Positions 1-56,192 of a DNA stretch of 64,000 bases are shown in pieces. Both the position numbers and the translations under genes were made by a program. This DNA is from a virus (Duplodnaviria > Caudoviricetes). The notes below the pieces were generated by a model. That model searched no databases, was not told the DNA's origin, and worked only from the letters and a program-made list of their open reading frames with translations. The stretch covers positions 128,001 through 192,000 of IMG/VR virus record IMGVR_UViG_3300023174_000047; one strand, written 5' to 3'. Numbering within the stretch: position 1 is the first letter of the stretch; each line of letters starts with the position of its first letter.

Positions 1-1
1 G

Positions 2-427
2 CACTGTATTTTTAATTGCTTCACGCTTTTTAGCATAAAATAAACAAATTTCTTTGAGCTTGCGTGCATAAAACGGAATTGCAATGGCAAGATCCGAAGC
101 ATCATCATAATTAAGATTGCTTAAAAAACGTTTTTCATCAGCAGTTGTAAAATTAAGAGCAATATCCTTTAATAAATCTACATAACGCTGCCTAATTACA
201 TCTGTATTATTTGATGGTGCTTCATTAACAAGTGCATACCACTGCTGCAAATAATTATTATAACCCTCTGTAAATTGTTCTGGTGTTGCAATTTGCTTTG
301 AATATTTTAAGTATTCAAAGAAAGAAAAGGGCTGAAAATTATCCTTTGTATCTACAGCATCAACAGCGGCGTTGGTTATTGAATAATCAACTGTTGCAGA
401 ACCAAAGCTTGAAAAATTAGATGGCAT
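2..427 (-). CDS. Hypothetical structural protein, 5' part only (runs off the window)
   Basis: Manual translation from ATG at 427: MPSNFSSFGSATVDYSITN...FSFFEYLKYSK..., open to position 2; TAAATA just upstream on the - strand. Confidence 0.7.
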   Translation of the reverse strand, partial: MPSNFSSFGSATVDYSITNAAVDAVDTKDNFQPFSFFEYLKYSKQIATPEQFTEGYNNYLQQWYALVNEAPSNNTDVIRQRYVDLLKDIALNFTTADEKRFLSNLNYDDASDLAIAIPFYARKLKEICLFYAKKREAIKNTV

Positions 428-459
428 TTATATTATTTACCATGGCTCATGTATATTGG

Positions 460-936
460 TCATTTATTCCAACTTGATATGCATTTATCAAGCTGTTTTT
501 CCAAAACATTTTCAACAATCTCCATCTCCTCTGGGGAGAGATTCTCAGTAATATTAATTTTATTTTTATTAGGCTTAGGCACATTATATACCTCAACATC
601 TTTAAATTCAATGATGTTGTCTACAAAGTATGTGTTTGACATGTTAACATCATCACGTTCTTCTACTACTGTAAAGATGATTTCACCTTTAGCAGTACAA
701 ACACCAGGTCTTGTGTTTAGTTTTACATCAACATTAGTAAATTTTTCACGATATTTTTTGCTGCGCAACAATTGATCCATATCTTCGTGCTGATAATAAT
801 CCATATCATCATCGTCTGTTTCTTCTTCTGCCTGTTCTACTGAAGCAGAGTGATCAAACTGCTCCACATCCTCTTCATGTCTTTTTTTATGTTCATTAAT
901 ACTAGCTGCACGTTTAACTAAAAGATCAAATTTCAT
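460..936 (-). CDS. Acidic hypothetical late protein
   Basis: 158-aa ORF; TATAAATA at 942-949 on the - strand. Confidence 0.75.
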   Translation of the reverse strand: MKFDLLVKRAASINEHKKRHEEDVEQFDHSASVEQAEEETDDDDMDYYQHEDMDQLLRSKKYREKFTNVDVKLNTRPGVCTAKGEIIFTVVEERDDVNMSNTYFVDNIIEFKDVEVYNVPKPNKNKINITENLSPEEMEIVENVLEKQLDKCISSWNK

Positions 937-940
937 AGTG

Positions 941-1399
941 CTATTTATAATTTACTTTTTGTATTTTAGTCAAAACTTTATATATCCTCATCATTGAGAC
1001 AACTTGTTTTTCAAATTTGCGACACATTCTCTCAGCACGGCATTTATAATAATCATCAGGAGCAATGGTGTTTTCAGACCATTTATATATGTTAAATTGC
1101 AGCCAATGCATCATTTCATGTAAAATTGTAGCAAACAACTCTTTTTGGGTAAAATTATTCTCATTCATTAAGCCACCACACAAAGTAATTGCATTATCAT
1201 AATTATAATACCCATAATGGGAGTTATTTCTTTTGTCTGTGCGAATGGTTATGCTGTGATGTTTTGTATATTTAATATCATCAATAAAATGCGTGTTATA
1301 AAATGATGTAAATGCATTGCTAAACGCTTTTGCATCAAAACTACATATGCTTAGTGCTTTTTTTGCTGCAGCTGATAGTTTAAAATGGAATATTCGCAT
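941..1399 (-). CDS. SprT-like zinc metallopeptidase-domain protein
   Basis: HExxH motif (ATILHEMMHWLQ). Confidence 0.6.
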   Translation of the reverse strand: MRIFHFKLSAAAKKALSICSFDAKAFSNAFTSFYNTHFIDDIKYTKHHSITIRTDKRNNSHYGYYNYDNAITLCGGLMNENNFTQKELFATILHEMMHWLQFNIYKWSENTIAPDDYYKCRAERMCRKFEKQVVSMMRIYKVLTKIQKVNYK

Positions 1400-1442
1400 A
1401 GTCAGAGAATTTAGATATAAATATATTCAAATATTATTTACA

Positions 1443-1847
1443 ATGAGATTCCAAACATTTGAAACATTTTTCGAAACTACATCATCTGATCCAAGTACTC
1501 AAAAAATAGCTAATGATGTTGGCTATGGCAACTCATCACATGTGAGAAACAGTCGCATCACCGGATCAAGCGCTAATCAGCATATGGTTTCACAGAGCAA
1601 TATAAACACACAGAATGCAACAAAAAATAATAAAATTGACAAGGTATCAACTAATCCTGCTGCACAAGAAGTCTTGAATGACATGGATCTTCAAGAAATT
1701 CAAAATACACATGGCATTAATTTGAGTCAAATGCAGGACGATCAACCCAAACAAATAAATTCAAAAATTAATGCCGCAGTTGTAAAATCCAAAGATGCAG
1801 CCGGCAAACCAATGTTCAAATTAATCCATTACAAACCAATTTTATAA
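1443..1847 (+). CDS. Hypothetical late protein (start moved from 1317)
   Basis: TATAAATA at 1416-1423 precedes ATG 1443 (MRFQTFETFFE). Confidence 0.7.
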   Translation: MRFQTFETFFETTSSDPSTQKIANDVGYGNSSHVRNSRITGSSANQHMVSQSNINTQNATKNNKIDKVSTNPAAQEVLNDMDLQEIQNTHGINLSQMQDDQPKQINSKINAAVVKSKDAAGKPMFKLIHYKPIL

Positions 1848-2647
1848 TGAGCTATTACTCAGGAGCATATCAAGCACCAACCTGCGGTGTTTTTTATTCA
1901 GGTGCTAACAATGGCAACCTTGATTGCCAGGTAAATGTAAACGATCTTAACAGCAATGCTTCAGAACGCGAAACCATTTCTAATTCTATTCGCGAAGCCA
2001 TCAATAGATTTGGATCAACAGTGGCATATTATGTCAATACATACAATGTAAACAATGCAAACAACATATATGGTGAAAATCCAACTAGTGCATTCTATGG
2101 CCCAACAAACATTGTAATGTATGTTCAGCTGTCAGAAAATTCAGTAACACTTCGTAGATTTGGCTTCGATAGCGGTGATACCATCACAGCATATGTTCAC
2201 ATCAGTTCCTATAGCGCTATATTCTCTCCGTTGAGTGTTTATCCGTCACTCAGCCAAGCCATTGAGCCAAAAGCAGGTGATGTATTCCAGATGATCCAAT
2301 ATGGTGCAACACGCCCTGGTGATCGCAATGGTAAATTCTTTGAAATTACAGAGCGCGTTGATCAAGAAATGGATGATACAAGTATGAATCCATTGGGCGG
2401 ACATTACATGTGGAAGTTGCGCGCTCGACGCCTTGACTTCAGCTTTGAACCAGGATTATCCGGTGAAAAAGGTGCAGCACAAGTATTTGATAATGCTCTC
2501 AATGGTATTCTTTCAGGTGGCAGTGGCACTCAGGCTCCATCTCCGAGCAAGAGTTATCCTGGTAGTGCTGATGCAGAAAGCATCAATATTTTTGACCAAA
2601 GAGTAAATAATACAAGTGTTTATGGAGAGTATGGTTATAACACTTGA
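1847..2647 (+). CDS. Neck / head-completion protein, T4 gp14-like
   Basis: NIYGE...RFG...EPKAGD...FFEIT...YMWKLRARRLDFSFE pattern resembles gp14; morphogenesis context. Confidence 0.7.
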   Translation: MSYYSGAYQAPTCGVFYSGANNGNLDCQVNVNDLNSNASERETISNSIREAINRFGSTVAYYVNTYNVNNANNIYGENPTSAFYGPTNIVMYVQLSENSVTLRRFGFDSGDTITAYVHISSYSAIFSPLSVYPSLSQAIEPKAGDVFQMIQYGATRPGDRNGKFFEITERVDQEMDDTSMNPLGGHYMWKLRARRLDFSFEPGLSGEKGAAQVFDNALNGILSGGSGTQAPSPSKSYPGSADAESINIFDQRVNNTSVYGEYGYNT

Positions 2648-2676
2648 TTTTTATGTTGCACCATCCATAATATATA

Positions 2677-3390
2677 ATGATTACGTTTGATGAAGCCAAT
2701 CACAAATACCACAATGAGACTGGCCAGGAATATATAAGTGTAACAACTTTTCTAAATACATACAAAAAGCCTTTTGATACTGAGTTGCATGCTTCGCGTG
2801 TGGCAGAAAAAAATAATACCACACCAGAATCAGTTAAAGCAGCTTGGAAAGCATTAACCGTTGAATCACAGGATAAAGGCAAGGCTTATCACAAAGCTAT
2901 GGAAGATTACATCAAATTTGGCGAGATTGATTCAAAATATGAAGATCTCATCAAAAGTCTCAACAAAGCAAGTGAAGGTTTCAAGGCAACTAAAAAGACA
3001 GCAGAAGGTTTATTGTGGAATGATGATGCCCAAATTGCAGGTACTGCAGACCTGGTGCTTGAAAATGACAATGAATTCTTAATTCTTGATTTTAAGACCA
3101 ACAAAAAATTTAAATTCACTAATGATTTTGGTGAAAAATTACTTGCACCTTTAGATTATCTAGACTATTGTGAGTTCAACATTTATTCGTTGCAGTTGTC
3201 CTTGTATGCTTATATGAAGCAACAAACAACAGGAAAACATTGCAAAGGCTTAAAAGTTTTATATCTTACCATAAATAACTACAACAATTCAAAATACTGG
3301 AAAGAAATTCCAATTATTTACAACAAACACACCATAGAAAAACTAGTACAAATACGCAAAGCGTTCTTACAGCATGCAAACACACGATAA
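2677..3390 (+). CDS. PD-(D/E)XK exonuclease, Cas4/RecB-like
   Basis: AGTADLV...ILDFKT...YSLQLSLYAY motifs; sigma70-like TTGATT/TTGCAC and TATAAT upstream. Confidence 0.85.
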   Translation: MITFDEANHKYHNETGQEYISVTTFLNTYKKPFDTELHASRVAEKNNTTPESVKAAWKALTVESQDKGKAYHKAMEDYIKFGEIDSKYEDLIKSLNKASEGFKATKKTAEGLLWNDDAQIAGTADLVLENDNEFLILDFKTNKKFKFTNDFGEKLLAPLDYLDYCEFNIYSLQLSLYAYMKQQTTGKHCKGLKVLYLTINNYNNSKYWKEIPIIYNKHTIEKLVQIRKAFLQHANTR

Positions 3391-53599: not shown

Positions 53600-53840
53600 T
53601 ATTCCATTTTATTACCCAAAAATCAAATCCTCTCTCATTATTATCATAATAAACTTCATAACCGTGCGTTTCTAGCTCACGCATTATATCCAATGTAATA
53701 TTAGCATCACATGTAATGGCAGTAAGGCCCTTCAAACATGCTTCATATATTTTGTTAAAGATAAATTGAAGGGTATTTTCGAATGCATCTTCTGCAAGTA
53801 GCTTTGCTTCATATGCAGATATGTTAAGCGCTGTTGTCAT
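53580..53840 (-). CDS. Hypothetical protein
   Basis: 86-aa ORF. Confidence 0.65.
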   Translation of the reverse strand: MTTALNISAYEAKLLAEDAFENTLQFIFNKIYEACLKGLTAITCDANITLDIMRELETHGYEVYYDNNERGFDFWVIKWNNATKGD

Positions 53841-53903
53841 ATATGTTAATTTATGACAACAGCGCTATTTGCAATGTAAGGAGTGTTAATAATGATCAAA
53901 TAC

Positions 53904-54341
53904 TTAATCCAATATACTTGATGATGTCACTCGCTGCATTACATCACTAATATCATCTTCAGATGGGTTGTTATTACCTTTTAATTCGAGCAATGCTTTG
54001 GTCCATTCATATACATTTTCATACTTTTTATTATGTAAAAACCATGATTTATGTCCGTCTGCCCGTACAATGGCAGGTCCATCTTCTCTATGCCGCATGT
54101 CATTTAAATACCATGATTTACTTCCATCTGCCCATTCATCAGCAGGTCCATCTTCTCTATGCCGCATGTCATTTAAAAACCATGATTTACTTCCATCTGC
54201 CCATTCAATAGCAGGACCATCTTCTCTATGCCGTTTGCCATTGAGCATCCATATTTTATTGCCATATCTATCAACAGTCATAGTTGGCCGCTGCATTGCA
54301 TTTTCATATAACATTACAATGTTTTTACAGTCTTTGTTCAT
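53904..54341 (-). CDS. HREDGPA-repeat protein, paralog C (3 repeats)
   Basis: 23-aa MORN-like repeats; C-terminus VTSSSILD. Confidence 0.88.
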   Translation of the reverse strand: MNKDCKNIVMLYENAMQRPTMTVDRYGNKIWMLNGKRHREDGPAIEWADGSKSWFLNDMRHREDGPADEWADGSKSWYLNDMRHREDGPAIVRADGHKSWFLHNKKYENVYEWTKALLELKGNNNPSEDDISDVMQRVTSSSILD

Positions 54342-54351
54342 ATGCGTATAT

Positions 54352-54897
54352 TTAATCCAATATACTTGATGAAGTCACTTGCTGCACTACATCATTGATT
54401 TGATCTTCAGAAGGTTTTTTGATGCCTTTTAATTTTAAAAGTGCTTTAGCCCATGCAAATACATCTTCATATCGGCTGCTGTTCAAATACCAACCTTTGT
54501 ATCCATCTGCACGTTCAACAGCGGGCCCATCTTCTCTATGCACCTTGCCATGCAAATACCACGCTTTATCTCCATCTGCTTGCTCAACAGCAGGACCATC
54601 CTCTCTATGCGCCTTGTCATTCAAATACCAATATTTATCTCCATTTGCACATTCAATGGCAGGACCATCTTCTCTATGCAACCTACCGTGTAAAAACCAT
54701 TCTTTACGTCCATCTGTAAACTCAACAGCAGGACCATCTTCTCTATGAAACTCTCCATGCAAATACCATGCTCTATTTCCATTTGTATATTCATGAGCAG
54801 GTCCATCTGTTCTATGCAATTTGTTTTTGATCATCCATTTTGTATTACCATGCTTATCAACAGTCATAGTTGGCTGCTGCATTATATTTTCATTCAT
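54352..54897 (-). CDS. HREDGPA-repeat protein, paralog B (5 repeats)
   Basis: Same family; start 54897 follows TTGAAC-17nt-TATATT. Confidence 0.85.
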   Translation of the reverse strand: MNENIMQQPTMTVDKHGNTKWMIKNKLHRTDGPAHEYTNGNRAWYLHGEFHREDGPAVEFTDGRKEWFLHGRLHREDGPAIECANGDKYWYLNDKAHREDGPAVEQADGDKAWYLHGKVHREDGPAVERADGYKGWYLNSSRYEDVFAWAKALLKLKGIKKPSEDQINDVVQQVTSSSILD

Positions 54898-54904
54898 TGC
54901 TTTC

Positions 54905-54933
54905 AATATAAAGTATATGTTGTAGATGTTCAA
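54905..54933 (-). promoter_or_regulatory. Sigma70-like promoter for paralog B
   Basis: TTGAAC (54933-54928), 17-nt spacer, TATATT (54910-54905). Confidence 0.6.
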
Positions 54934-54938
54934 GCACT

Positions 54939-55307
54939 TTAATCCAATATACTTGAAGATGTTACTTGCTGCACTTTATCATTGATCTCATCTTCAGAAG
55001 GATCATTAATGCCTTTTAATTTAAGTAAGGCTTCAGCCCATGCAACTACATCTTCATATCGGCTGTTGTTCAAATACCAACTTTTGTATCCATCTGCATG
55101 CTCAACGGCAGGACCATCTTCTCTATGCCGCATGTCATGCAACCACCACGCTTTACTTCCATCTGCATATTCTACAGCAGGTCCATCTTCCCGGTGCCAT
55201 TTGCCATTGAGTCTCCATATTTTAGTGCCATCTTTATCAACAGTCATAGTTGGCTGCTGCATTGCATTTTCATACAGCATCGCAATGTTTTTGTTGTCTC
55301 TGTTCAT
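54939..55307 (-). CDS. HREDGPA-repeat protein, paralog A (2 repeats)
   Basis: Same family; TAAATA at 55315-55320. Confidence 0.88.
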   Translation of the reverse strand: MNRDNKNIAMLYENAMQQPTMTVDKDGTKIWRLNGKWHREDGPAVEYADGSKAWWLHDMRHREDGPAVEHADGYKSWYLNNSRYEDVVAWAEALLKLKGINDPSEDEINDKVQQVTSSSILD

Positions 55308-55356
55308 ATGCGTATATTTAACCTAATATGCTTGATTAAATCGCATGATATACTCA

Positions 55357-56094
55357 TTATTGTTGCATTTCGGTGGGAATTTGAATAGGCATTGGAGCTC
55401 CTGAGGCCTTCCATGCAGATATACGAGTCTCATCAGCATCAGAAATTACATAGTCTTTATCGTTGATATTGATTGCTACGATGCTTGCAAGGCTTATATT
55501 TCGAATATGTACGCCAGTCTGTAACCCTTGATACACCCCCGGGTTAATACGGTTGATGTACTGCTCATAATCAGCCTTGTCTACTACTTCAAAATTGTCA
55601 TTACCATTATTTTTAAGCAATACAGGCTTAAAGGAGGCTGCAACAGCAATGGGCTTATATCGGAGATACAACTGACCATCCAACTCGACGAAAGCATCTG
55701 TATCTGGAATGGACTTATACTTGCTGTCTTTTGCAACAAAATTAGCTTCTGCACCTTCTCGCTCGCGTTGTTTGTTGACCTCTACAGAATATGAATGACC
55801 ATACATGCCATTGAGTTGCGATACCTTGATTAGATATGTTTTACTAACTTTAAGCCCTGTCAAAACAAAAGGCGCGATGTTAGGAATTTTATTAGTATTT
55901 TCTCTGGTCACTTGAGTGACACTAAAGAAATTAGTACCAGGGTGGCTGGTTTTGAGCTGTTTAGTAAGATCAACCAAGCCCTGCTGTGTAATGCTGTGCT
56001 GCGACTGCGGTGTTTGTGCGATGCCAAATGCCATTTCAGTATATAGGTTGTAAATGTTTGTGCTGTCAGTATTATTCAGCAATGATGTATTCAT
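55357..56094 (-). CDS. Hypothetical protein
   Basis: 245-aa ORF. Confidence 0.75.
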   Translation of the reverse strand: MNTSLLNNTDSTNIYNLYTEMAFGIAQTPQSQHSITQQGLVDLTKQLKTSHPGTNFFSVTQVTRENTNKIPNIAPFVLTGLKVSKTYLIKVSQLNGMYGHSYSVEVNKQREREGAEANFVAKDSKYKSIPDTDAFVELDGQLYLRYKPIAVAASFKPVLLKNNGNDNFEVVDKADYEQYINRINPGVYQGLQTGVHIRNISLASIVAININDKDYVISDADETRISAWKASGAPMPIQIPTEMQQ

Positions 56095-56192
56095 ATGCTT
56101 TACTTATTATATGTCACTTAAAGATACAGGCAACTATAATTCTTAAATAAAAAATAGTTGCACAAAACCTGAAACACATATAAGATGCACAC

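What the first reader, a model, noticed from the sequence alone, without database searches (positions are those of the whole stretch)
53904..55320. Tandem array of three paralogs with 2, 5 and 3 copies of a 23-aa repeat between conserved caps
Seen: shared N-cap (PTMTVD..G.K.W), HREDGPA repeats with variable residues between fixed positions, shared C-cap ending VTSSSILD. The DNA TTAATCCAATATACTTGA recurs at 53904, 54352 and 54939, and TTCATATGCGTATATTTAA precedes A and C. Inference: a MORN-like beta-hairpin binding scaffold diversified by unequal recombination, possibly a set of inhibitors of host defence proteins.
Basis: partly seen in the sequence, partly recalled or inferred. Interest (0 to 1): 0.65.

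Follow-up and report, generated by a model that had tools for sequence, protein, structure and literature searches.

The report
Three-gene outpost of phage binder family
Three neighbouring genes in an uncultured 204-kb T4-like phage encode small MORN-like beta-hairpin repeat proteins (2, 5 and 3 repeats); they are an inserted, inverted outpost of a family of at least 26 such genes that keeps a fixed frame and varies one surface, most likely a set of protein binders aimed at the host, though no target is known.

Summary
Three intact minus-strand genes lie at 54939-55307 (A), 54352-54897 (B) and 53904-54341 (C). They carry 2, 5 and 3 copies of a 69-nt (23-aa) HREDGPA unit between shared caps.

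- **Family:** The window lies in a 203,774-bp T4-like phage record. It holds 26 intact paralogues plus one cut by the record end, about 7% of the genome.
- **Origin of the trio:** It is a lineage-specific insertion of about 1.46 kb. Two relatives have the flanking genes adjacent. One complete relative has only three family genes, at the main-array locus.
- **Fold:** AlphaFold models (pLDDT 90-94) match MORN proteins (Foldseek E 2e-6). No Pfam MORN model matches and the MORN signature motifs are absent.
- **Variation:** Twelve repeat positions are almost fixed. Positions 8, 10, 14, 16, 22 and 23 are hypervariable.
- **Recombination:** Quantised lengths, a 94%-identical adjacent unit pair and mosaic units support unit-register recombination.
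- **Expression:** A and C carry a TAAATA late box plus a 10-aa leader. B carries a sigma70-like promoter and no leader.

A host-directed binder role is inferred; anti-defence is untested. This scan had already flagged the main array of this genome and similar arrays in other phages.

The parts
54939..55307 (-). Gene A: 122 aa, late-type head (MNRDNKNIAMLYEN...), 2 repeats (units at about 55059-55196), C-cap ending SSSILD
   Evidence: C-cap dN/dS 0.25 against main-array genes
55315..55320 (-). TAAATA late-promoter-like box 7 nt before the ATG of A
   Evidence: TAAATA-N4-8-ATG occurs 31 times in the window against 11.2 +/- 3.3 expected.
55318..55335 (-). Non-coding remnant (15 of 18 bases) of the family's invariant gene tail (..SSILD stop). 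It marks the upstream border of the inserted block.
54352..54897 (-). Gene B: 181 aa, early-type head (MNENIMQQ...), 5 repeats (units at about 54472-54816), C-cap ending SSSILD
   Evidence: C-cap dN/dS 0.30
54905..54933 (-). Sigma70-like promoter TTGAAC-17-TATATT. Its -10 ends 7 nt before the ATG of B. It is homologous along its length to the late cassette of A and C.
   Evidence: consensus match only, no RNA data
53904..54341 (-). Gene C: 145 aa, late-type head (MNKDCKNIVMLYEN...), 3 repeats (units at about 54024-54230). It has the most diverged C-cap in the family.
   Evidence: C-cap dS 0.82 against about 0.44 for the family, dN/dS 0.28
54349..54354 (-). TAAATA box 7 nt before the ATG of C. 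Its first three bases are the stop codon of B.
53876..55338 (-). Approximate extent of the inserted three-gene block, about 1.46 kb. Relatives L009 and L010 have the 245-aa and 86-aa flanking genes adjacent here.

Best explanation
The three genes are a transposed, inverted outpost of one large phage gene family.

Protein architecture (predicted): each gene encodes a small, acidic, soluble protein built from four parts.
- A degenerate first hairpin forms the N-cap.
- It is followed by n copies of a 23-aa MORN-like beta-hairpin unit.
- A two-helix C-terminal cap closes the repeat stack.
- The protein ends in a short disordered acidic-hydrophobic tail.

Fixed and variable positions (shown): H1, R2, E3, D4, G5, P6, A7, E9, G13, K15, W17 and L19 are almost fixed. 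Positions 8, 10, 14, 16, 22 and 23 vary freely and are rich in Tyr, Arg, His, Trp and Asp.

Inferred surface: because the variable and fixed positions alternate along the strands, the variable ones should line one face of the sheet. Repeat number would then set the length of that surface.

How the family evolves (shown): recombination in 69-nt register adds, deletes and swaps units.

How the trio arose (inferred): a block of three already diverged genes, with the tail of a fourth, was copied into a new site between a 245-aa gene and an 86-aa gene.

Expression (inferred from sequence): each gene carries its own short promoter cassette.
- A and C have a T4-type late box (TAAATA, overlapping the preceding stop codon) and 10 extra N-terminal residues ending in L-Y-E.
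- B has a sigma70-like promoter and starts at what would be the trimmed N-terminus.
- The same kind of protein would therefore be made both early and late.

Most likely function (inferred, untested): a repertoire of intracellular protein binders directed at host proteins, for take-over or counter-defence.
For: Family size and strict 23-aa length steps.

The phage is T4-like: gp23 capsid protein (E 3.5e-95) and gp21-type prohead protease (E 2.3e-36) are present.

The trio is an insertion:
- Both relatives found through the 245-aa flank gene (66% and 55% identity) have the 245-aa and 86-aa genes adjacent.
- A remnant of a family gene tail sits upstream of A.
- The complete relative G001 has only 3 family genes, at the locus syntenic with the main array.

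Fold: pLDDT 89.8 and 93.6. MORN1, junctophilin and MORN4 are the top matches.

Fixed and variable positions, and selection:
- dN/dS is 0.05 at scaffold positions and 1.76 at variable positions.
- C-cap dN/dS is 0.25-0.30 in all three genes, so they are maintained.

Recombination.

Promoters:
- The two cassette types align along their whole length. The late-type ATG aligns with the early-type -35 TTG.
- The TAAATA box is enriched before start codons.
- A sigma70-like site precedes B.

Other support:
- All members are acidic, with pI 5.0-6.5.
- The only cultured small phage with the repeat (Celeribacter phage P12053L) carries it among small genes of unknown function, between thymidylate synthase/endonuclease and primase/helicase genes.
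- Solved MORN proteins bind partner peptides: the MORN4/Myo3a entry 6jle and the junctophilin-2/CaV1.1 peptide entry 7rxq appear among the hits.
Against: - No target, binding or expression data exist. The phage is uncultured and its host is unknown.
- The variable positions were chosen by their variability, so dN/dS above 1 there is partly circular. Measured against scaffold dS, the ratio is only about 1.3.
- TM-scores to MORN structures are low (0.26-0.42), and VIA-align Z of about 6 lies within the range common for unrelated repeat sheets.
- No defence or anti-defence family matched.
- Copy numbers rest on a metagenome assembly that breaks inside the main array.
Confidence: 0.6

Rival explanations
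1. Injected internal proteins. The late-type members (A and C here) are carried into the prohead by their N-terminal leader and trimmed by the gp21-type prohead protease after L-Y-E. They are then ejected with the DNA and act in the next cell before any phage gene is expressed, as T4 IPI* does. The early-type members (B) supply the same proteins by transcription.
For: - Late box and a 10-aa leader ending MLYE|N are present on A and C.
- The early-type N-terminus (MNEN AMQQ) equals the predicted trimmed late-type N-terminus.
- A prohead protease is present.
- The capsid protein propeptide has L-S-E|A at the expected maturation point and an M-L-L-E-N site resembling the leader's M-L-Y-E-N.
- More distant subfamilies also have (L/I)-x-E near the end of their heads.
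Against: - L/I-x-E is a three-residue motif that arises easily by chance.
- There is no homology to T4 IPI-III or any PHROG internal-protein family.
- The proteins are acidic. From memory, not checked here, T4 internal proteins are basic.
- No virion proteomics exist.
Confidence: 0.25
2. Adaptor library. The constant C-cap and tail dock on one hub (the phage sliding clamp, a protease or another machine), while the variable sheet picks different clients.
For: - The tail is disordered in both models yet conserved.
- Every subfamily ends in an acidic or Ser residue plus a hydrophobic pair: SILD, DLFD, DLFS, NDLL, DDLL.
- In relative G001 the tails DLFD and DLFS repeat the start of its DNA polymerase C-terminus DLFDLFG.
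Against: - In this genome the family tail (SILD) differs from the polymerase tail (DLFDLFG).
- The last five codons show almost no third-position variation. Conservation may therefore be a DNA constraint from the overlapping promoter of the next gene.
- No gp45 Pfam match was obtained, though that search is inconclusive.
Confidence: 0.1
3. Virion decoration or self-assembling scaffold. The proteins would coat capsid or tail like Hoc-type adhesins, or polymerise into a mesh as MORN1 does, rather than bind host proteins.
For: - About half of the family has late promoters.
- MORN1 forms dimers and meshes (PMC7725318).
- VIA-align also lists phage baseplate and spike sheets at Z about 5.
Against: - Fourteen of the 26 intact genes have sigma70-like cassettes and no late box.
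- A structural part would not need 26 variable versions.
- The closest complete relative manages with three.
Confidence: 0.08
4. No function: a selfish or decaying repeat expansion, or an assembly artefact.
For: - The record breaks inside the main array.
- Repeat proteins are known to break short-read assemblies (PMC9238414).
Against: - All three ORFs are intact, with scaffold dN/dS 0.05 and C-cap dN/dS 0.25-0.30.
- Shared exact words are at most 72 nt.
- The same caps occur in independent metagenomes.
Confidence: 0.04

Closest known systems
MORN repeat proteins (MORN1 6t69/6t68/6t4d, MORN4-Myo3a 6jle, junctophilin-2 7rxe/7rxq; Pfam PF02493; PMC7725318)
   Same: - The period is 23 residues, with one beta-hairpin per repeat stacked into a single-layer sheet.
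- Both share a W..GK.H core.
- Helices follow the last repeat; the VIA-align match to MORN4 spans model residues 17-141, which include them.
- These proteins are the best structural matches.
- MORN4 and junctophilin bind partner peptides along the sheet.
   Different: - No Pfam MORN or MORN_2 match.
- The defining GxG and YEGEW motifs are replaced by HREDGPA and K.W.L.
- The proteins here are tiny, phage-encoded, hypervariable on alternate strand positions, and organised as a tandem gene family.
HREDGPA-repeat proteins of phages, giant viruses and bacteria (unnamed; partly caught by DUF6745 PF20530; partners DUF7666, DUF3310, PcfJ-like)
   Same: - They carry the same repeat unit. A profile search found 32,635 cluster representatives at E<=1e-3.
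- BFVD matches reach E 1.6e-20, including uncultured Caudovirales proteins, Mimivirus R871, Powai lake megavirus and Agrobacterium phage Atu_ph07.
   Different: - These caps (QQPTMTVD head...VTS[AS]SILD tail) were found in only 18 proteins from a few freshwater samples.
- Most other members are long or fused to other domains.
- None has a known function.
Multigene families of repeat proteins in large DNA viruses (ankyrin, MORN and FNIP expansions in amoebal giant viruses, PMC5753266; poxvirus ANK/F-box and ASFV MGF families, from general knowledge)
   Same: These are also tandem paralogue arrays that expand and contract. They have variable repeat number, constant end modules and lineage-specific copy number (3 against at least 26 here).
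   Different: This is a bacterial virus of T4 type. The genes are far smaller, each has its own 40-nt promoter cassette, and there is no link to ubiquitin-type machinery.
T4 internal proteins IPI/IPII/IPIII with capsid targeting sequence
   Same: Both have a late promoter and a short N-terminal leader ending in (L/I)-x-E before the mature protein. A prohead protease is present.
   Different: There is no sequence homology. The proteins here are acidic. Packaging has not been shown.

Membership tests
MORN repeat (Pfam PF02493) | Match to the Pfam profile at or above the gathering score | tested here: not met
   hmmscan of A, B and C at E<=1 returned no MORN hit
MORN repeat (Pfam PF02493) | 23-residue period, each repeat a beta-hairpin in a single-layer sheet (PMC7725318) | tested here: met
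   Period is 69 nt. AlphaFold2 models are all-beta hairpins. Foldseek E 2.3e-6 to MORN1. The structure is predicted, not solved.
MORN repeat (Pfam PF02493) | GxG motif, G at position 10 and YEGEW motif (PMC7725318) | tested here: not met
   The consensus of 100 units is HREDGPA.E.a.G.K.W.L; only W..GK.H is shared
MORN_2 variant (Pfam PF07661) | Profile match at gathering score | tested here: not met
   No hit for A, B or C. One distant homologue scores 25.0 bits against a cut-off of 29.6.
DUF6745 (Pfam PF20530) | Match over the 206-position domain | tested here: not met
   Only 18 of 206 profile positions match (one hairpin). B scores 27.2 bits against a cut-off of 27; A scores 16.3 and C 13.1.
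Diversity-generating retroelement target protein | Reverse transcriptase and template repeat in the genome | tested here: not met
   No RVT_1 match in the 204-kb record, while the control genomes rang
T4-type internal (ejected) proteins | Late promoter plus N-terminal leader ending (L/I)-x-E, and a gp21-type protease in the genome | tested here: met
   A and C have TAAATA 7 nt before the ATG and the leader ..MLYE|N. Peptidase_S77 is present at E 2.3e-36. Gene B lacks both the late box and the leader.
T4-type internal (ejected) proteins | Presence in virions and cleavage of the leader | not testable with these tools
   Uncultured phage, no proteomics
T4-type internal (ejected) proteins | Sequence homology to IPI, IPII or IPIII | tested here: not met
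   The PHROG scan returned only weak hits to families of unknown function
Sliding-clamp ligands (gp43/gp33/gp55-type C-terminal epitope) | Short hydrophobic and acidic C-terminus on a flexible linker, resembling that of the phage's own DNA polymerase | tested here: inconclusive
   The tail is disordered and acidic-hydrophobic. In relative G001 the family tails DLFD and DLFS resemble the polymerase tail DLFDLFG. In this genome the family tail SILD does not match the polymerase tail DLFDLFG. Third codon positions of the tail are frozen.

The most novel reading that the evidence does not exclude
The family may be a phage-encoded substrate-receptor library. A variable MORN-like sheet would capture many different host proteins. 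The invariant C-terminal cap and its disordered acidic-hydrophobic tail would plug all of them into one hub, such as the sliding clamp or a protease. Late-type members would in addition be packed into the head and injected. This would be a bacterial-virus counterpart of the poxvirus ankyrin/F-box families.
Probability: 0.1. Interest if true: 0.85.

Novelty: new variant of a known kind. Interest (0 to 1): 0.6.

Why it matters
Large arrays of variable repeat-protein genes are a hallmark of giant eukaryotic viruses and poxviruses, where they set host range. They are hardly described in phages.

Here a T4-like phage spends about 7% of its genome on one such family. A close relative has only three copies. 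The trio shows the family seeding a second locus.

The repeat type is very common (more than 32,000 cluster representatives). It has no Pfam repeat model of its own, and no paper in the searched library contains the repeat string REDGPA in this sense or mentions DUF6745.

If the proteins are binders, they would be:
- a natural, compact (23 aa per module), cysteine-poor scaffold for protein recognition;
- a new class of candidates for phage take-over or counter-defence factors.

The paired early and late promoter cassettes, a few mutations apart, would also be a clean example of how a phage retimes a gene.

Tried and rejected
- **Plus-strand ORFs over the repeats:** rejected. Codon-position statistics and homologues support the minus strand.
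- **Diversity-generating retroelement:** no reverse transcriptase found.
- **Recent copy of a main-array segment:** rejected. The best match is 81.6% over 1.1 kb and 86% over 0.7 kb, and the three genes are no closer to each other than to main-array genes.
- **Known families:** Pfam, PHROGs, NCBIfam and PADLOC gave nothing with a function.
- **Phage record collection:** no DNA match. By protein, only Celeribacter phage P12053L and Agrobacterium phage Atu_ph07 matched, all annotated as hypothetical.
- **Search for closer relatives of the locus:**
  - The junction string has no match in viral contigs.
  - The 245-aa flank gene has no relative in metagenome contigs.
  - Family-gene scans returned only 1-kb contigs or distant loci.
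- **Clamp idea:** gp45 Pfam models did not ring anywhere, so that search is uninformative. Other ORFs with similar tails gave no PHROG hit.
- **Domain partners:** Pfam scans of very long homologues gave only LRV/HEAT repeats or nothing.
- **Literature:** searches for the repeat string and for DUF6745 found nothing relevant.
- **Model coordinates:** not available in the script box, so the one-face claim could not be measured.
Full report
**What is there.** On the minus strand of the window lie three abutting intact genes (sequence).
- A is at 54939-55307 and encodes 122 aa.
- B is at 54352-54897 and encodes 181 aa from the ATG that all paralogues use.
- C is at 53904-54341 and encodes 145 aa.

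Tandem Repeats Finder reports a 69-nt period, with 2.9 copies in C and 4.9 in B. In-register extraction gives 2, 5 and 3 units of the form HREDGPA.E...G.K.W.L.....

**The trio belongs to a much larger family.** The window is bases 128001-192000 of a 203,774-bp virus record with 37% G+C. The record carries a T4-type major capsid protein (Gp23, E 3.5e-95) and a gp21-type prohead protease (Peptidase_S77, E 2.3e-36). The genome holds 26 intact family genes plus one cut by the record end.
- Nineteen intact genes lie at 194201-203736 on the plus strand, followed at the record end by an early-type promoter cassette with no gene.
- Four more intact genes, plus the truncated one, lie at 2-3193.
- The remaining three are the trio.
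- The record ends do not join cleanly, so the assembly broke inside the array.

Protein lengths follow 66+23n for genes with a short head and 76+23n for genes with a long head. Here n runs from 1 to 7, with one exception that is one residue longer. The family covers about 14.2 kb, or 7% of the genome.

**The trio is an insertion.** The 245-aa gene just upstream (55357-56094) has relatives in two viral contigs, at 66% and 55% identity. In both contigs that gene is followed directly by the homologue of the 86-aa gene. In the window, the 86-aa gene lies downstream of C. After it come the same small genes and the endolysin, and no family gene lies between. A comparison of the junctions shows three things.
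- The block starts with a non-coding remnant (15 of 18 bases, 55318-55335) of the invariant tail of a family gene.
- After the stop of C it runs on into sequence that loosely resembles the start of an early-type cassette (about 9 of 13 bases by eye, not tested).
- The ancestral spacer resumes about 25 nt after the stop of C.

The 224.7-kb complete relative G001 has only three family genes, 43-45% identical. They are flanked by homologues of the genes that flank the main array here. The ancestral locus therefore grew from a handful of genes to at least 23, and a second locus was seeded.

The trio is not a recent copy.
- The best nucleotide matches to the main array are 81.6% over 1.1 kb and 86% over 0.7 kb.
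- Its three genes are no closer to each other than to main-array genes.
- The C-cap of gene C is the most diverged in the family, with dS 0.82 against about 0.44.

**The proteins.** AlphaFold2 models were built with alignments of paralogues and metagenomic homologues. They are confident: pLDDT 89.8 for C and 93.6 for B.
- The long-head protein C has a low-confidence N-terminal helix.
- A run of short paired strands follows.
- Two C-terminal helices come next.
- The last 3-4 residues are disordered.

Foldseek against the PDB puts MORN proteins on top.
- The 3-repeat model reaches E about 1e-3.
- The 5-repeat model reaches E 2.3e-6 with probability 1.00. Nearly all of its first 30 hits are MORN1, junctophilins, MORN4 or axonemal MORN proteins.
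- An independent aligner gives Z 6.1 over 104 residues to MORN4 in its Myo3a complex. That value is not far above background for repeat sheets.

By sequence the proteins are not Pfam MORN members. No MORN or MORN_2 hit appears, only an 18-residue match to DUF6745. The signature GxG and YEGEW motifs of the structure-based definition (PMC7725318) are absent; only W..GK.H is shared.

The repeat itself is very widespread and unnamed.
- A profile search found 32,635 cluster representatives at E<=1e-3.
- There are strong structural matches among uncultured phages and giant viruses.
- The ESM Atlas clusters are mostly viral 'hypothetical protein'.
- These particular caps were found in only 18 proteins from a few samples.

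**Fixed frame, variable stripe.** Over 100 units, twelve positions are almost invariant. Positions 8, 10, 14, 16, 22 and 23 have 1.9-3.2 bits of entropy and favour Tyr, Arg, His, Trp, Asp and Ser. Variable and fixed positions alternate (x E x ... x K x W x L). From this I infer, without coordinates, that the variable side chains lie on one face.

Pairwise Nei-Gojobori estimates over all unit pairs give three values.
- dN/dS is 0.05 at scaffold positions.
- It is 0.54 at semi-variable positions.
- It is 1.76 at the six variable positions.

The last figure is inflated by choosing sites on variability. Against scaffold dS it is about 1.3. The C-caps of A, B and C have dN/dS 0.25-0.30, like the rest of the family, so the trio is maintained by selection. 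All members are acidic, with pI 5.0-6.5.

**Recombination.** Four observations support exchange in 69-nt register, within and between genes and between the two loci.
- Protein lengths step by exactly 23 aa.
- Units 1 and 2 of C are 94% identical.
- Unit 3 of B is 96% identical to the first units of two main-array genes, while its neighbours reach only about 83%.
- Several units in the main array are 100% identical within and between genes.

No reverse transcriptase is present, so a diversity-generating retroelement is excluded.

**Two heads, two promoters.** A and C are preceded by GATTAAATA or GGTTAAATA followed by TACGCAT and then the ATG. For C, the first three bases of the TAAATA box are the stop codon of B. 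For A, they are the stop-codon position of the non-coding remnant. The pattern TAAATA-N4-8-ATG occurs 31 times in the window against 11.2 +/- 3.3 in shuffles. This fits T4-type late promoters set close to start codons. The same stop-in-box junction exists in relative G001, so it is ancestral.

B is preceded by TTGAAC-17-TATATT, which ends 7 nt before its ATG. An alignment shows the two cassettes are homologous along their whole length and differ in four ways.
- The early type lacks 5 nt of the late box.
- It has TTG where the late type has its ATG.
- Its -10 lies over the late type's codons 8-10.
- It gains a new ATG further on.

As a result, late-type proteins carry ten extra residues (KDNKNIMMLY). 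In the genome 12 genes are late-type and 14 early-type. All of this is inferred from sequence; there are no RNA data.

**The tail.** The last five codons and the stop show almost no third-position variation, while other third positions in the C-cap have diversity 0.2-0.56. Part of this conservation is therefore a DNA constraint, most simply because these bases lie directly upstream of the next gene's promoter cassette and the stop codon supplies the first three bases of the late box. At protein level, distant subfamilies also end in an acidic or Ser residue plus a hydrophobic pair: DLFD, DLFS, NDLL, DDLL.

In relative G001 the DLFD and DLFS tails repeat the start of its DNA polymerase C-terminus DLFDLFG. 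The polymerase here ends the same way. T4 clamp ligands are 'hydrophobic and acidic C-termini' on flexible linkers (PMC2988020). In this genome, however, the family tail is SILD. I keep a docking role for the tail as a low-probability reading.

**Function.** Nothing known matched in PHROGs, NCBIfam or PADLOC. Among 50,697 phage records, only Celeribacter phage P12053L and Agrobacterium phage Atu_ph07 carry the repeat, in unannotated genes. In P12053L those genes lie among small genes of unknown function, between thymidylate synthase/endonuclease and primase/helicase genes.

The best-supported reading is a repertoire of intracellular protein binders. Its features are a fixed scaffold, one variable surface, variable length, rapid birth and death of genes, and expression both early and late. 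A host-directed take-over or counter-defence role is plausible but untested.

A sub-hypothesis is that late-type members are packed into the head and trimmed after L-Y-E.
- The protease is present.
- The capsid propeptide has L-S-E|A and M-L-L-E-N sites.
- The early-type N-terminus equals the predicted trimmed form.
- The motif is short, and there is no homology to T4 internal proteins.

**Caveats.**
- This is a metagenome assembly. Repeat proteins are under-recovered by short-read assembly (PMC9238414), and close relatives were found only on contigs of about 1 kb.
- Within the trio, shared exact words are at most 72 nt.

**Earlier notes of this scan.** They had flagged the main array of this genome, the two promoter cassettes and similar arrays in other phages. 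I re-derived the family count, the fold, the variable positions and the cassette homology here. New in this report:
- the evidence that the trio is an insertion;
- the synteny of the relative's three-gene cluster with the main array;
- the frozen tail codons.

Noticed in passing
window 53838-53880 (- strand); relative L009 6767-6795: A perfect 15-bp hairpin lies immediately after gene C (dG -23.6 kcal/mol, z -7.2). The start codon of the 86-aa gene is in its 3' arm, and CATAAAT sits at the arm/loop junction. The relative has a hairpin at the same place with different stem letters, again with the ATG in the 3' arm and CATAAAT in the same position. This resembles (from my own recollection, not checked in a paper here) the T4 gene e / soc arrangement, where read-through RNA hides the start and late RNA that begins inside the hairpin frees it.
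   Followed up: partly
G000 194201-203774 and 1-3193 (outside the window; loci L002-L008): The main family array runs across the record ends, and the ends do not join, so the assembly broke inside the array. One 559-aa gene (1514-3193) fuses three family modules that lack the tail to a second kind of repeat (..EYDEKGN..F E.S.G.W..).
   Followed up: partly
all family genes, last 5 codons plus stop (for example window 53904-53921): Third-codon positions of ..(A/S)SILD-stop are almost invariant across 26 genes, while the rest of the C-cap varies freely at third positions. This indicates a DNA-level constraint, probably because these bases lie just upstream of the next gene's promoter cassette and the stop codon begins the late box.
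   Followed up: partly
window 56106-56140: Divergent sigma70-like promoter pair in the 98-nt gap between the 245-aa gene (- strand) and a DnaB-like ATPase gene (+ strand): TTGCCT-16-TATAAT and ATGTCA-18-TATAAT, each 10 of 12. The trio sits just inside the minus-strand unit.
   Followed up: no
G000 89947-90909 (L036) and G001 (L037): The last DNA polymerase piece starts with an intein C-terminal splicing segment and ends in DLFDLFG, a T4-type clamp-binding-like tail. The relative has an unsplit 852-aa frame with the same tail.
   Followed up: partly
window 53963-55388 (+ strand): Long open frames antisense to the three genes (up to 133 aa, for example ...AGPSSLCR... repeats) arise because the repeat has no stop codons in the opposite frame. 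They are not genes.
   Followed up: yes
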